Assembly (NCBI RefSeq): GCF_003334385.1
Contig: NZ_QOWN01000028.1
Origin: Escherichia coli
GTDB lineage: Bacteria > Pseudomonadota > Gammaproteobacteria > Enterobacterales > Enterobacteriaceae
DNA length: 60,886 nucleotides
Strand: one strand, 5' to 3'
In this document: positions 47,666 to 48,994 of the stretch, piece after piece
Layout of the letters: each line of letters starts with the position of its first letter
Position numbering within the stretch: position 1 is the first letter of the stretch
Translations under genes and position numbers: made by a program
Notes under the pieces: model-generated
Databases searched by the model: none
Seen by the model: only the letters and a program-made list of their open reading frames with translations
Told to the model about the DNA's origin: nothing

Positions 47666-47705
47666 GGATAATATTGCAGATCGTAAGAGTATGAGATGAT
47701 CTTGC

Positions 47706-47738
47706 GTACTGTCAGAGCACTGATTTCTCTGACAGTAC
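47706..47738. terminator. Perfect 12-bp stem / 9-nt loop hairpin between convergent patD and yncL
   Basis: GTACTGTCAGAG-cactgattt-CTCTGACAGTAC. No strong U-tract on either side, so its role (bidirectional terminator, RNA processing site or protein-binding site) is unresolved. Confidence 0.45.
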
Positions 47739-47761
47739 GTGCTGCGTGCAAAATCACTACA

Positions 47762-47857
47762 TCAAATAAACCAGCCAAATCTCATAGAGATAAGAGTAAA
47801 CAAACCAACAGCAGCAAAGAAATTTATCAGTACTACAGTTCTACTGGAAACATTCAT
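47762..47857 (-). CDS. yncL: Small membrane protein YncL (31 aa)
   Basis: Not in the ORF track. Hand translation of the minus strand gives MNVSSRTVVLINFFAAVGLFTLISMRFGWFI*, a single-helix hydrophobic peptide I recognise as YncL. Confidence 0.6.
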   Translation of the reverse strand: MNVSSRTVVLINFFAAVGLFTLISMRFGWFI

Positions 47858-48051
47858 TTTTGCCACCTTTTATCATTGCCCCTATGTGTATAGTACGGGT
47901 TAAGAAAATCCGCAATAATACTCATTCTGAAGATGGATAAGGGCAAGTTGCTGTTTGATGATTTTTTCTCAAACTGGTGAAAAAACTTGATGCACGTCAA
48001 AAAATGACGCATATTTGCGCGCGTTTTATTCATCTGGCTGGACGCCCGTAC

Positions 48052-48225
48052 ATGTCTCTCTATCAACACATGCTTGTTTTTTATGCGGTTATGGCAGCAA
48101 TCGCATTTCTTATCACCTGGTTTCTTTCTCACGATAAGAAACGCATCCGTTTCTTAAGCGCCTTTCTGGTGGGGGCAACATGGCCGATGAGTTTCCCGGT
48201 GGCGCTGTTGTTTTCACTGTTTTAA
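48052..48225 (+). CDS. ortT: Orphan toxin OrtT (small membrane protein, 57 aa)
   Basis: Contained in ORF 47977..48225; the internal ATG at 48052 gives MSLYQHMLVFYAVMAAIAFLITWFLSHDKKRIRFLSAFLVGATWPMSFPVALLFSLF. Confidence 0.72.
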   Translation: MSLYQHMLVFYAVMAAIAFLITWFLSHDKKRIRFLSAFLVGATWPMSFPVALLFSLF

Positions 48226-48310
48226 ATCTTACTCACTGGCTTGACGGCACCACGCAGACTTATATCATTTGGATGAATCGATAAATTTCACAAGTGGCTA
48301 AGGAGAAAGT

Positions 48311-48544
48311 ATGTCGCATCTGGATGAAGTCATCGCGCGCGTGGATGCCGCGATTGAAGAGAGCGTCATTGCCCATATGAACGAATTATTAATCGCCCTG
48401 AGCGATGACGCGGAGTTAAGTCGGGAAGATCGCTACACCCAGCAGCAACGTCTGCGCACAGCGATCGCCCATCACGGTCGCAAGCATAAAGAAGATATGG
48501 AAGCGCGCCACGAACAGTTAACCAAAGGCGGCACCATCCTCTGA
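48311..48544 (+). CDS. ydcY: Small protein YdcY (77 aa)
   Basis: ORF with ATG at 48311 and AAGGAGA upstream. Confidence 0.72.
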   Translation: MSHLDEVIARVDAAIEESVIAHMNELLIALSDDAELSREDRYTQQQRLRTAIAHHGRKHKEDMEARHEQLTKGGTIL

Positions 48545-48994
48545 TTAAAATGAGCGTCTGGCTACCAACCAGGCGCCAACCACAAGTAAAATTGCGCCAC
48601 AAATTGGGCCGAACAACGCCCGTAGTGGTACGCCATGACTGCGGAAGATATCCAGCATCAGACCGCCAATCAGCTGACTGGCGACCAGTACAGCAATAGT
48701 TGTCGCCGCTCCCACATTCTGATATCCGCTGATACTGGCGAAGACAAAAAACGATCCCAGCAAGCCAGGTATAAGTGTCCACCAGCGCACGCTGGACACC
48801 AGTTCGCCAAACCCCGCCATGCCTTGTTTAAACCATAAAATAGAAACAAAGAGCACAATCCCCACCAGTGAGTTCAGCAACATGGCGATGAGAATGGTAG
48901 AGGAGGTCTGGGTGATGCGCACCATCAGCGTGTTCTGGACAACCAGACCAATTCCGGCGGCAATCAAAAAAGCAAGGGTGAGCGACTGATTCAT
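48545..48994 (-). CDS. ydcZ: DUF606-family inner-membrane protein YdcZ (putative small exporter)
   Basis: 149-aa hydrophobic ORF; its start codon directly follows the mnaT stop, so the two are probably co-transcribed. Confidence 0.8.
   Translation of the reverse strand: MNQSLTLAFLIAAGIGLVVQNTLMVRITQTSSTILIAMLLNSLVGIVLFVSILWFKQGMAGFGELVSSVRWWTLIPGLLGSFFVFASISGYQNVGAATTIAVLVASQLIGGLMLDIFRSHGVPLRALFGPICGAILLVVGAWLVARRSF

What the first reader, a model, noticed from the sequence alone, without database searches (positions are those of the whole stretch)
47666..48545. Small-protein cluster (yncL, ortT, ydcY) with a perfect 12-bp hairpin
Within about 0.9 kb there are three short genes: a 31-aa hydrophobic peptide (yncL, minus strand), a 57-aa membrane toxin-like peptide (ortT) and a 77-aa protein (ydcY). 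A perfect 12-bp stem with 9-nt loop sits at 47706-47738 without a clear U-tract. The ORF track reports two longer ORFs here (47696..47893 plus strand, 47854..48132 minus strand) that I consider artefacts overlapping the real genes. Dense small membrane peptides next to a strong structure often mark post-transcriptional regulation.
Basis: partly seen in the sequence, partly recalled or inferred. Interest (0 to 1): 0.4.

Follow-up and report, generated by a model that had tools for sequence, protein, structure and literature searches.

The report
yncL mRNA end hairpin, known genes
This is the well-annotated E. coli patD–yncL–ortT–ydcY region, and the perfect hairpin is the stem-loop that caps the 3' end of the abundant yncL messenger RNA after Rho-dependent termination, which is an ordinary and already described kind of element.

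Summary
The window is E. coli K-12-type DNA (100% identical to strain C600). It carries yncL (47762-47857, minus), ortT (48052-48225, plus) and ydcY (48311-48544, plus), annotated the same way in about 5,400 complete genomes. The hairpin is a perfect 13-bp stem with a 9-nt loop (47705-47739). It is the only perfect stem of 12 bp or more in the 60.9-kb window, against about 0.02-0.04 expected by chance. It is single-copy per genome and present in 5,412 of 5,426 E. coli genomes.

Published Term-seq data place a very strong minus-strand RNA 3' end at window 47702, 3 nt after the stem and 60 nt after the yncL stop. Published +/-bicyclomycin data show that termination just beyond it is Rho-dependent. 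No U-tract follows the stem, but a C-rich, G-poor tract does. A stem-loop at this position is kept by compensatory changes in Escherichia, Citrobacter and Salmonella.

The hairpin is therefore best read as the protective 3' stem-loop of a Rho-terminated yncL mRNA, the class described by Dar & Sorek (2018). It belongs to yncL alone, not to a three-gene "cluster". The two longer ORFs are artefacts. Everything here is known or is an instance of a known kind, so interest is low.

The parts
46241..47665 (+). patD (gamma-aminobutyraldehyde dehydrogenase) CDS, convergent with yncL; context gene
   Evidence: ORF list; RefSeq annotation of C600 and MG1655.
47705..47739 (-). Perfect 13-bp stem with 9-nt loop: the 3'-terminal stem-loop of the yncL mRNA
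   Evidence: Inverted repeat; fold energies; unique in the window; single-copy per genome and in 5,412 of 5,426 E. coli genomes; compensatory changes across 24 sequences.
47702..47702 (-). Mapped steady-state RNA 3' end (MG1655 1517039), 3 nt after the stem and 60 nt after the yncL stop
   Evidence: Adams et al. 2021 Term-seq, supplementary file 1: 75,265 reads at LB OD 0.4 and 536,300 at LB OD 2.0, listed in all three conditions. Coordinate offset of +1,469,337.
47665..47704 (-). C-rich, G-poor tract immediately after the hairpin (C 11, G 3 in 40 nt); includes the box GATC(A/T)TC(T/C)CA conserved in Escherichia and Citrobacter; putative Rho-loading (rut) region
   Evidence: Composition; alignment. 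The rut function is inferred from the general finding of Dar & Sorek 2018.
47416..47701 (-). Rho-dependent termination zone for transcripts leaving yncL, antisense to the patD 3' end (peak Rho score at MG1655 1516753 = window 47416)
   Evidence: Adams et al. 2021 supplementary file 2: -BCM 220 upstream / 9 downstream; +BCM 106 / 72; Rho score 16.6; p = 5e-21.
47762..47857 (-). yncL CDS, 31-aa single-pass membrane protein
   Evidence: NCBIfam equivalog NF000537, 68.6 bits against a cut-off of 35; RefSeq annotation; literature.
47858..47894 (-). yncL 5' UTR with Shine-Dalgarno sequence (GGTGG) and an invariant block ACTATAC (47888-47894), inferred to be a sigma-S-type -10 element
   Evidence: Invariant columns in the 12-species alignment; strong RpoS-holoenzyme SELEX peak in the yncL/ydcX spacer; sigma-S dependence of the Salmonella orthologue STnc1110. 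The promoter assignment itself is an inference.
48052..48225 (+). ortT (ydcX) CDS, 57-aa membrane-damaging orphan toxin
   Evidence: Pfam PF10753 Toxin_GhoT_OrtT, E = 9e-28; annotation; Islam et al. 2015.
48241..48268 (+). Promoter-like site TTGACG-16-TATCAT upstream of ydcY
   Evidence: Consensus scan, 10 of 12 matches. The OrtT paper also predicts a separate sigma-70 promoter for ydcY.
48311..48544 (+). ydcY CDS, 77-aa DUF2526 protein
   Evidence: Pfam PF10735, E = 1e-46, full length; annotation.

Best explanation
The hairpin is the 3'-terminal stem-loop of the short, abundant, stationary-phase-induced yncL mRNA, which I estimate at about 180 nt. The proposed mechanism has three steps.

1. 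RNA polymerase leaving yncL transcribes through the hairpin.
2. Rho loads on the C-rich, G-poor RNA just downstream and stops transcription within the next few hundred nucleotides, antisense to the end of patD.
3. 3'-to-5' exonucleases trim the RNA back to the base of the stem. This leaves a precise end 3 nt after the stem and protects the message from further decay.

**Shown by published data or by sequence:** the position and strength of the 3' end, Rho-dependence of the read-through, absence of a U-tract, the C>G tract, and conservation of the stem by compensatory changes.

**Inferred:** that the end is made by trimming rather than by termination at the stem; that the C-rich box is the rut site; and that the hairpin raises yncL mRNA stability.

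The three small genes are independent, already characterised genes. YncL is a stress-induced membrane-depolarising peptide, OrtT is an orphan membrane toxin, and YdcY is a DUF2526 protein of unknown function.
For: **Location.** The hairpin starts 22 nt after the yncL stop codon, on the yncL-sense strand.

**Mapped 3' end.** Term-seq gives a minus-strand 3' end at MG1655 1517039 = window 47702 (...CUCUGACAGUACGCAA-3'). The read count is 75,265 at OD 0.4 and 536,300 at OD 2.0, and the end is listed in all three growth conditions. The rise at OD 2.0 fits the known stationary-phase and sigma-S induction of yncL. The authors' table calls it 'antisense patD' only because their 'primary' class stops 50 bp after a gene, and this end is 60 nt after yncL.

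**Rho dependence.** Downstream/upstream coverage is 9/220 without bicyclomycin and 72/106 with it. The Rho score is 16.6 with p = 5e-21.

**Sequence after the stem.** There is no U-tract (1 T in the first 8 nt), and the next 40 nt have C 11 against G 3.

**Match to a described class.** Dar & Sorek 2018 describe steady-state ends of Rho-dependent transcripts that lie immediately after stable stem-loops, lack U-tracts, have downstream C>G enrichment, and are protected from PNPase and RNase II.

**Conservation.**
- Of the 27 species loci where yncL adjoins ortT, 25 have a perfect stem of 9 bp or more (G·U pairs allowed), beginning 15-33 nt after the yncL stop.
- In a 24-sequence alignment, 9 of 15 pairs show changes on both sides. 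The covariation score is 0.215 against 0.121 in shuffles (0 of 500 shuffles reach it), and it exceeds all slid controls.
- The loops differ freely in sequence and length.

**Strand.** G·U pairs in Salmonella and in several Citrobacter, and in E. coli strain E29, are valid only on the yncL-sense strand.

**Linkage to yncL.** In strains with a 1.3-kb insertion after patD, the hairpin stays with yncL.
Against: - The Rho data have coarse resolution (800-nt windows), so the exact termination points are unknown.
- Exonucleolytic trimming and protection were not shown for this transcript.
- The assignment of the 3' end to yncL is by position and expression pattern, not by a full-length read.
- The stem is a perfect palindrome, so it folds equally well in the patD-sense RNA. 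patD-yncL is also listed among convergent overlapping transcript pairs, so a second role for patD is not excluded.
- In the two Salmonella subspecies and one other enterobacterium, the orthologous hairpin is followed by a U run. The ancestral element may therefore have been an intrinsic terminator.
- Intestinirhabdus alba shows no clear hairpin, and S. arizonae has only an imperfect one.
Confidence: 0.8

Rival explanations
1. The hairpin is a weak, non-canonical intrinsic (Rho-independent) terminator, possibly bidirectional, that stops both yncL and patD transcription directly.
For: - It is a strong stem placed between convergent genes and folds on both strands.
- An RNA 3' end maps at it.
- At the orthologous position, Salmonella diarizonae and arizonae have a U run after the structure. 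Enterobacteriaceae RIT691 has an A-tract/stem/T-tract arrangement that looks like a bidirectional terminator.
Against: - There is no U-tract on either strand in Escherichia or Citrobacter.
- The terminator scan does not flag it.
- The RNA end is only 3 nt past the stem rather than within a U-tract.
- Bicyclomycin raises downstream coverage from about 4% to about 68% of upstream coverage.
- patD and yncL transcripts overlap in at least half of 58 transcriptomes.
- No plus-strand 3' end is reported at the hairpin.
Confidence: 0.12
2. The element acts through double-stranded RNA. The hairpin, or the patD/yncL sense-antisense overlap around it, is an RNase III processing site that sets yncL and patD levels (an excludon-type mechanism).
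For: - patD-yncL is listed as a convergent excludon in MG1655.
- yncL mRNA abundance changed in the RNase E / RNase III mutant tiling-array study and was confirmed by northern blot.
Against: - A 13-bp stem is shorter than the roughly two helical turns that RNase III normally needs (established knowledge).
- The mapped end lies outside the stem, not within it.
- Which nuclease mutant affected yncL, and in which direction, is not stated in the accessible text.
- patD is poorly expressed in the conditions where the 3' end is strongest. This is an inference from the absence of patD 3' ends.
Confidence: 0.05
3. The palindrome works at the DNA level, as a protein-binding operator or a recombination/insertion target next to a variable 1.3-kb island.
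For: - It is a perfect palindrome.
- Some strains carry a 1.3-kb insertion with an acetyltransferase gene, ending about 45 bp from the hairpin.
Against: - Arm sequences diverge between genera while pairing is kept. The loop is free to vary in sequence and length (3-9 nt).
- G·U-type changes are tolerated on one strand only. This is the signature of an RNA helix, not of a sequence-specific DNA site.
- The insertion junction is at the patD stop codon (ATTAAG repeat), not at the hairpin.
- The element is single-copy, not a repeat family.
- The CTGT/ACAG halves are 19 nt apart, which does not fit a LexA box (CTGT-N8-ACAG). This is read directly from the sequence.
Confidence: 0.03

Closest known systems
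[quoted passage not shown]
   Same: - A stable stem-loop with no U-tract.
- A precise steady-state RNA 3' end a few nt after the stem.
- Bicyclomycin-sensitive termination downstream.
- C>G enrichment immediately after the stem.
   Different: Nothing in kind. This instance is unusually perfect (13 of 13 pairs) and caps a very short, very abundant small-protein mRNA. Exonuclease protection has not been shown for this transcript.
Canonical intrinsic terminators, including bidirectional ones between convergent genes
   Same: A hairpin in a short spacer between convergent genes. The orthologous site in Salmonella and in Enterobacteriaceae RIT691 looks like an intrinsic terminator.
   Different: In E. 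coli there is no U-tract on either strand, the 3' end is 3 nt after the stem, and read-through depends on Rho.
Salmonella 'sRNA' STnc1110 (the yncL transcript)
   Same: It is the orthologous short sigma-S-dependent transcript encoding YncL and ends in the homologous stem-loop.
   Different: The two Salmonella subspecies examined have a U run after an extended stem. E. coli has a C-rich tract instead. No Rfam family matched the region at E up to 1.
Type I / type V membrane-toxin loci (TisB/IstR, GhoT/GhoS)
   Same: OrtT is a GhoT-family (PF10753) small membrane-damaging toxin.
   Different: No antitoxin is known. YdcY, GhoS and the flanking intergenic RNAs do not neutralise OrtT. The hairpin is not part of the ortT transcript.

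Membership tests
Protective 3' stem-loop of a Rho-dependent transcript | Energetically stable stem-loop in the 3' UTR | tested here: met
   13 perfect pairs, about -23 kcal/mol, z = -4.0 on the yncL-sense strand.
Protective 3' stem-loop of a Rho-dependent transcript | Steady-state RNA 3' end immediately downstream of the stem | tested here: met
   Published Term-seq end at window 47702, 3 nt after the stem, in three growth conditions. Coordinates mapped.
Protective 3' stem-loop of a Rho-dependent transcript | No uridine-rich tract after the stem | tested here: met
   Tail is CAAGAUCAUCUCA, with 1 T in the first 8 nt. Counts are at most 4 of 8 in the other Escherichia and Citrobacter sequences.
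Protective 3' stem-loop of a Rho-dependent transcript | Read-through increases when Rho is inhibited | tested here: met
   Published DirectRNA-seq +/-BCM: 220/9 against 106/72, Rho score 16.6, p = 5e-21. Resolution is 800-nt windows.
Protective 3' stem-loop of a Rho-dependent transcript | C-over-G enrichment (rut-like) directly downstream | tested here: met
   C 11 / G 3 in the 40 nt after the stem. C-G is +6 to +10 in the other five Escherichia sequences and +6 or more in most Citrobacter, though only -2 to +4 in six Citrobacter loci. Rho binding itself was not tested.
Protective 3' stem-loop of a Rho-dependent transcript | The stem protects the RNA from PNPase / RNase II | not testable with these tools
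   Needs half-life and 3'-end measurements in pnp and rnb mutants and in stem mutants.
Intrinsic (Rho-independent) terminator | Stem-loop followed within 0-2 nt by a U-tract, with the RNA end in the U-tract | tested here: not met
   No T-run on either strand; not flagged by the terminator scan; RNA end 3 nt after the stem.
Intrinsic (Rho-independent) terminator | Termination independent of Rho | tested here: not met
   Bicyclomycin-sensitive.
Repeated extragenic palindromes (REP/BIME and other dispersed repeat families) | Many related copies per genome | tested here: not met
   One place per genome in 5,412 E. coli genomes, with a highest count of 2. No other copy in the window.
Curated RNA families (Rfam 15) | Match to a covariance model | tested here: not met
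   No match at E up to 1 in 46000-50000 on either strand.
YncL (NCBIfam NF000537, equivalog) | Score above the curated cut-off over the full length | tested here: met
   68.6 bits against a cut-off of 35, residues 1-30 of 30 profile positions.
GhoT/OrtT toxin family (Pfam PF10753) | Full-length match to the profile | tested here: met
   E = 9.2e-28, profile positions 1-55 of 55. Toxicity and orphan status come from Islam et al. 2015.
DUF2526 (Pfam PF10735) | Full-length match to the profile | tested here: met
   E = 1.2e-46, profile positions 1-77 of 77.
Type I toxin-antitoxin locus (toxin plus cis- or nearby-encoded antisense RNA) | A neighbouring RNA that neutralises the toxin | not tested
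   Not tested here. A published experiment with the flanking intergenic regions was negative.

The most novel reading that the evidence does not exclude
The yncL transcript may be a dual-function RNA. It is a roughly 180-nt sigma-S-induced message, catalogued as sRNA STnc1110 in Salmonella, and it pairs with RprA and KilS in interactome data. On this reading it also acts as a regulatory RNA or sRNA sponge.

Its unusual 3' end would set its stability and its Hfq-independence. That end consists of a perfect stem with no U tail, followed in the DNA by the conserved C-rich box GATCTTC(C/T)CAC. The orthologous element has switched between an intrinsic terminator (Salmonella) and a Rho-plus-protective-hairpin design (Escherichia, Citrobacter).
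Probability: 0.08. Interest if true: 0.4.

Novelty: already known. Interest (0 to 1): 0.12.

Why it matters
It matters little beyond housekeeping. The three genes are annotated and have been studied. The hairpin fits a published general mechanism, and its RNA 3' end is already in a public Term-seq table.

Two small points are useful:
- That table labels the end 'antisense patD' because of a 50-bp rule, although it is almost certainly the yncL mRNA end.
- The orthologous site appears to have exchanged a U-tract (Salmonella) for a C-rich Rho-loading tract (Escherichia, Citrobacter). This is a tidy example of turnover in terminator type.

Because its stem is perfect and easy to mutate, this hairpin could serve as a clean model for testing how 3' stem-loops stabilise small-protein mRNAs.

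Tried and rejected
- **Rfam search** of 46000-50000 at E up to 1 gave no match.
- **Dispersed repeat family or mobile-element end.** Rejected: the hairpin is single-copy per genome.
- **LexA-type operator.** Rejected: the half-site spacing is wrong (19 nt instead of 8), read from the sequence.
- **Integron attC-like site.** I considered this because a CatB-like gene is inserted nearby in some strains. I rejected it because the insertion junction is at the patD stop codon, about 45 bp away, and the hairpin lacks the GTTRRRY core. This was read and was not a formal test.
- **Lower extension of the stem** predicted in the 96-nt minus-strand fold. It is not conserved in other Escherichia, and its 3' half lies beyond the mapped RNA end.
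- **Perfect 9-bp palindrome inside ortT** (48135-48156). It is a by-product of the KKRIRFL codons, and pairing is not kept across species.
- **YncL protein search.** I searched with OrtT instead.
- **Supplements and papers not held.** The supplements of Dar & Sorek 2018 and of the RNase E/III tiling-array paper are not held as text. The PMC id I tried from memory for the Thomason 2015 TSS paper is not held. The yncL transcription start is therefore inferred, not taken from data.
- **Promoter scan**. It flagged no yncL or ortT promoter. Its only minus-strand hit lies inside the hairpin, and I regard it as chance.
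Full report
**Identity of the region**

The 1-kb stretch around the finding is 100% identical to E. coli C600. It is found at 95% identity or more in 5,416 of 5,426 complete E. coli genomes. The annotated order is the same everywhere: patD, yncL (opposite strand), ortT, ydcY, ydcZ.

Comparison with MG1655 (NC_000913.3) gives a fixed offset: window coordinate + 1,469,337 = MG1655 coordinate. In window coordinates the genes are:

| Gene | Coordinates | Strand |
|---|---|---|
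| patD | 46241-47665 | + |
| yncL | 47762-47857 | - |
| ortT | 48052-48225 | + |
| ydcY | 48311-48544 | + |
| ydcZ | 48545-48994 | - |

YncL passes the NCBIfam equivalog NF000537 (68.6 bits, cut-off 35). OrtT matches Pfam PF10753 over its full length. YdcY matches PF10735/DUF2526 over its full length.

**The hairpin as an observation**

The inverted repeat is perfect over 13 bp (47705-47717 and 47727-47739), with 9 nt between the arms. As RNA it folds at about -23 to -24 kcal/mol on either strand, with z = -2.8 (plus) and -4.0 (minus) against dinucleotide shuffles.

It is the only perfect stem of 12 bp or more (loop 3-12 nt) in the 60.9-kb window. First-order Markov random sequences give a mean of 0.04 such stems per window.

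It is not a member of a dispersed repeat family. A 71-nt query around it finds one place per genome in 5,412 of 5,426 E. coli genomes, and no feature is annotated on it in the records listed. No Rfam family matches the region at E up to 1. No T-run follows it on either strand, and the terminator scan does not flag it.

**What the hairpin is**

Published transcript-end data settle most of the question.

- **The 3' end.** In the Term-seq tables of Adams et al. 2021 (eLife 10:e62438) there is a minus-strand RNA 3' end at MG1655 1517039. Its context is ...CACGTACTGTCAGAGAAATCAGTGCTCTGACAGTACGCA[A]GATCATCTCA. With the offset above this is window 47702. That is 3 nt after the last paired base of the stem and 60 nt after the yncL stop codon.
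- **Its strength.** The average read count is 75,265 at OD 0.4 in LB and 536,300 at OD 2.0. The end is listed in all three growth conditions.
- **Its label.** The authors' table calls it 'antisense, patD'. Their 'primary' class is limited to 50 bp after a gene, while their 'antisense' class includes 50 bp around a gene on the other strand.
- **My assignment.** Assigning the end to yncL is my inference. yncL is the nearest upstream gene on that strand. The seven-fold rise at OD 2.0 also fits what is known of yncL: it is induced in stationary phase, minimal medium and heat shock. Its Salmonella orthologue is the sigma-S-dependent 'sRNA' STnc1110. The yncL/ortT spacer holds one of the stronger RpoS-holoenzyme SELEX peaks.
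- **Rho dependence.** The same paper's DirectRNA-seq with and without bicyclomycin lists a Rho termination region on the minus strand. Its peak is at 1516753 (window 47416), antisense within patD. Coverage upstream/downstream is 220/9 without the drug and 106/72 with it. The Rho score is 16.6 and p = 5e-21.

Transcription leaving yncL is therefore not stopped efficiently by the hairpin itself. It is stopped by Rho in the next few hundred nucleotides.

The RNA just after the stem is C-rich and G-poor, with C 11 and G 3 in 40 nt. This combination is exactly the class described by Dar & Sorek 2018. Its features are a stable stem-loop, no U-tract, a precise steady-state end immediately after the stem, Rho-dependence and downstream C>G enrichment. 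In that class the stem protects Rho-terminated transcripts from PNPase and RNase II, and rut sites lie just downstream.

**Comparative evidence**

Using an OrtT alignment I retrieved 80 enterobacterial loci. yncL lies next to ortT, in divergent orientation, in 27 of them: Escherichia, Citrobacter, Salmonella, Intestinirhabdus and one unnamed genus.

- **Presence of the stem.** In 25 of the 27 there is a perfect stem of 9-18 bp (G·U pairs allowed), beginning 15-33 nt after the yncL stop. S. arizonae has only an imperfect version, and Intestinirhabdus has nothing clear.
- **Sequence change with pairing kept.** The arms differ between genera while pairing is retained. Escherichia has CGTAC/CGCAC/CATAC/CACAC-TGTCAGAG, Citrobacter has TGGCAGAGAG(A), and Salmonella has TTGGCGGGGAGG.
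- **Covariation counts.** On a 24-sequence alignment, 9 of 15 pairs show changes on both sides. The ten core pairs (columns 13-22 with 31-41) are paired in nearly all sequences. The covariation score is 0.215 against 0.121 +/- 0.013 in shuffles (0 of 500 reach it), and it exceeds every slid control.
- **Loops.** They vary freely in sequence and length (3-9 nt).
- **Strand.** G·U pairs occur in the yncL-sense orientation in Salmonella and several Citrobacter. An E. coli strain (E29) has a stem change that is a U·G wobble in yncL-sense RNA but a C·A mismatch in patD-sense RNA.
- **Linkage.** In strains that carry a 1.3-kb insertion directly after the patD stop codon, the hairpin and the sequence downstream of it stay next to yncL.

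These points indicate an RNA helix that serves yncL. They argue against a DNA-binding site and against an element needed by patD.

**Sequence after the stem across genera**

- In Escherichia and Citrobacter no U-tract follows the stem. A conserved C-rich box does: GATCTTC(C/T)CAC, which is GATCATCTCA in K-12.
- In the two Salmonella subspecies that box is absent. The stem is extended by three outer pairs and is followed by CUAUUUUUU.
- In Enterobacteriaceae RIT691 the site has a stem flanked by an A-tract and a T-tract.

I read this as a switch between intrinsic termination and Rho-dependent termination plus a protective stem at an orthologous site. It is an inference from sequence only.

**The rest of the 'cluster'**

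- **ortT and ydcY as separate units.** They lie on the other strand from yncL. The authors of the OrtT study state that ortT-ydcY is not an operon and predict separate promoters for the two genes. A promoter-like site (TTGACG-16-TATCAT, 10 of 12 matches) precedes ydcY. ydcY has its own mapped 3' end at 48581.
- **OrtT.** It is a membrane-damaging toxin that lacks an antitoxin. YdcY, GhoS, the flanking intergenic RNAs and a genomic library all failed to neutralise it.
- **YncL.** It depolarises the membrane and causes nucleoid condensation when produced.
- **yncL mRNA.** It is listed as a partner of the sRNAs RprA (RIL-seq and TRIC-seq) and KilS.
- **patD-yncL.** The pair is listed among convergent overlapping transcript pairs in MG1655. 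This agrees with read-through past the hairpin.
- **RNase mutants.** yncL mRNA levels changed in an RNase E / RNase III mutant study, but the details are in a supplement that is not held.

**The two longer ORFs are artefacts**

- **65-aa ORF (47696-47893, plus strand).** Its start codon is AAG in three other E. coli strains compared. The longest ORF antisense to yncL ranges from 23 to 96 aa, with different start codons across species.
- **92-aa ORF (47854-48132, minus strand).** Its frame contains stop codons in nearly all other species, including other E. coli.
- **Both.** Neither matches an NCBIfam family. Neither is annotated in the RefSeq records inspected.

**Rivals**

- **Weak intrinsic or bidirectional terminator.** This is the main alternative. 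It is disfavoured by the missing U-tract, the end 3 nt after the stem and the bicyclomycin effect.
- **RNase III / excludon role.** This is possible for the wider overlap, but a 13-bp stem is short for RNase III, and the mapped end is outside the stem.
- **DNA-level role.** This is disfavoured by the covariation pattern.
- **A second role for patD.** Because the stem is a perfect palindrome, it could also cap patD transcripts. No plus-strand end is reported there, probably because patD is poorly expressed in the conditions sampled. This remains open.

**Verdict**

The gene calls and the artefact calls are right. The hairpin is an instance of a known class and belongs to yncL only. The idea of a structured small-protein cluster is not supported. 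Novelty is low: the genes, the 3' end and the mechanism class are all already in the literature. The small additions here are:
- the reassignment of the 'antisense patD' 3' end to yncL;
- the cross-genus covariation of the stem;
- the apparent exchange of terminator type between Salmonella and Escherichia/Citrobacter.

Noticed in passing
L002 1687-3003 (E. coli ARS-C301); corresponds to an insertion between window 47665 and about 47666: Some E. coli strains carry a roughly 1.3-kb AT-rich insertion with a CatB-related O-acetyltransferase gene directly after the patD stop codon. Both junctions share ATTAAG. One search found 6,589 places in 5,417 records, so perhaps a fifth of genomes have this or another interruption. 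That figure is a rough inference.
   Followed up: partly
window 48135-48156 (inside ortT): A perfect 9-bp palindrome with a 4-nt loop (TAAGAAACG catc CGTTTCTTA) encodes KKRIRFL. Across 80 species only 5-7 of the 9 pairs usually hold. It is a by-product of Lys versus Phe/Leu codon complementarity, not a conserved structure.
   Followed up: yes
window 47987-48030 (ortT upstream region): A block conserved in 12 species (CTTGATG..TCAAAAAA..GCATATTGCGCGCGTTTT) contains a small GC hairpin with A/T runs on both sides. A minor plus-strand RNA 3' end lies at 48020, 32 nt before the ortT ATG (848 reads, not Rho-dependent). It could be a promoter or operator, or a 5'-UTR attenuator. I did not resolve this.
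   Followed up: partly
window 48542-48581: The ydcY (plus) and ydcZ (minus) stop codons abut with no spacer (48544/48545). The mapped ydcY mRNA 3' end (MG1655 1517918 = window 48581) lies 37 nt inside the ydcZ coding sequence.
   Followed up: no
L009 and L012 (Salmonella diarizonae / arizonae), L066 (Enterobacteriaceae RIT691), downstream of yncL: The orthologous yncL 3' hairpin is followed by a U run in these taxa. In Escherichia and Citrobacter it is followed by a C-rich conserved box. This looks like a switch between intrinsic and Rho-dependent termination.
   Followed up: partly
window 47977-48225: A GTG-initiated 82-aa extension of ortT is open in the window. Many database entries-97-aa versions of OrtT. 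RefSeq and the experimental paper use the 57-aa ATG start. The longer calls look like start-site mis-annotations.
   Followed up: no
window 12874-12903: This is the only other perfect hairpin of 11 bp or more in the window (GATGTGGACTG aatatcta CAGTCCACATC). I did not examine it.
   Followed up: no
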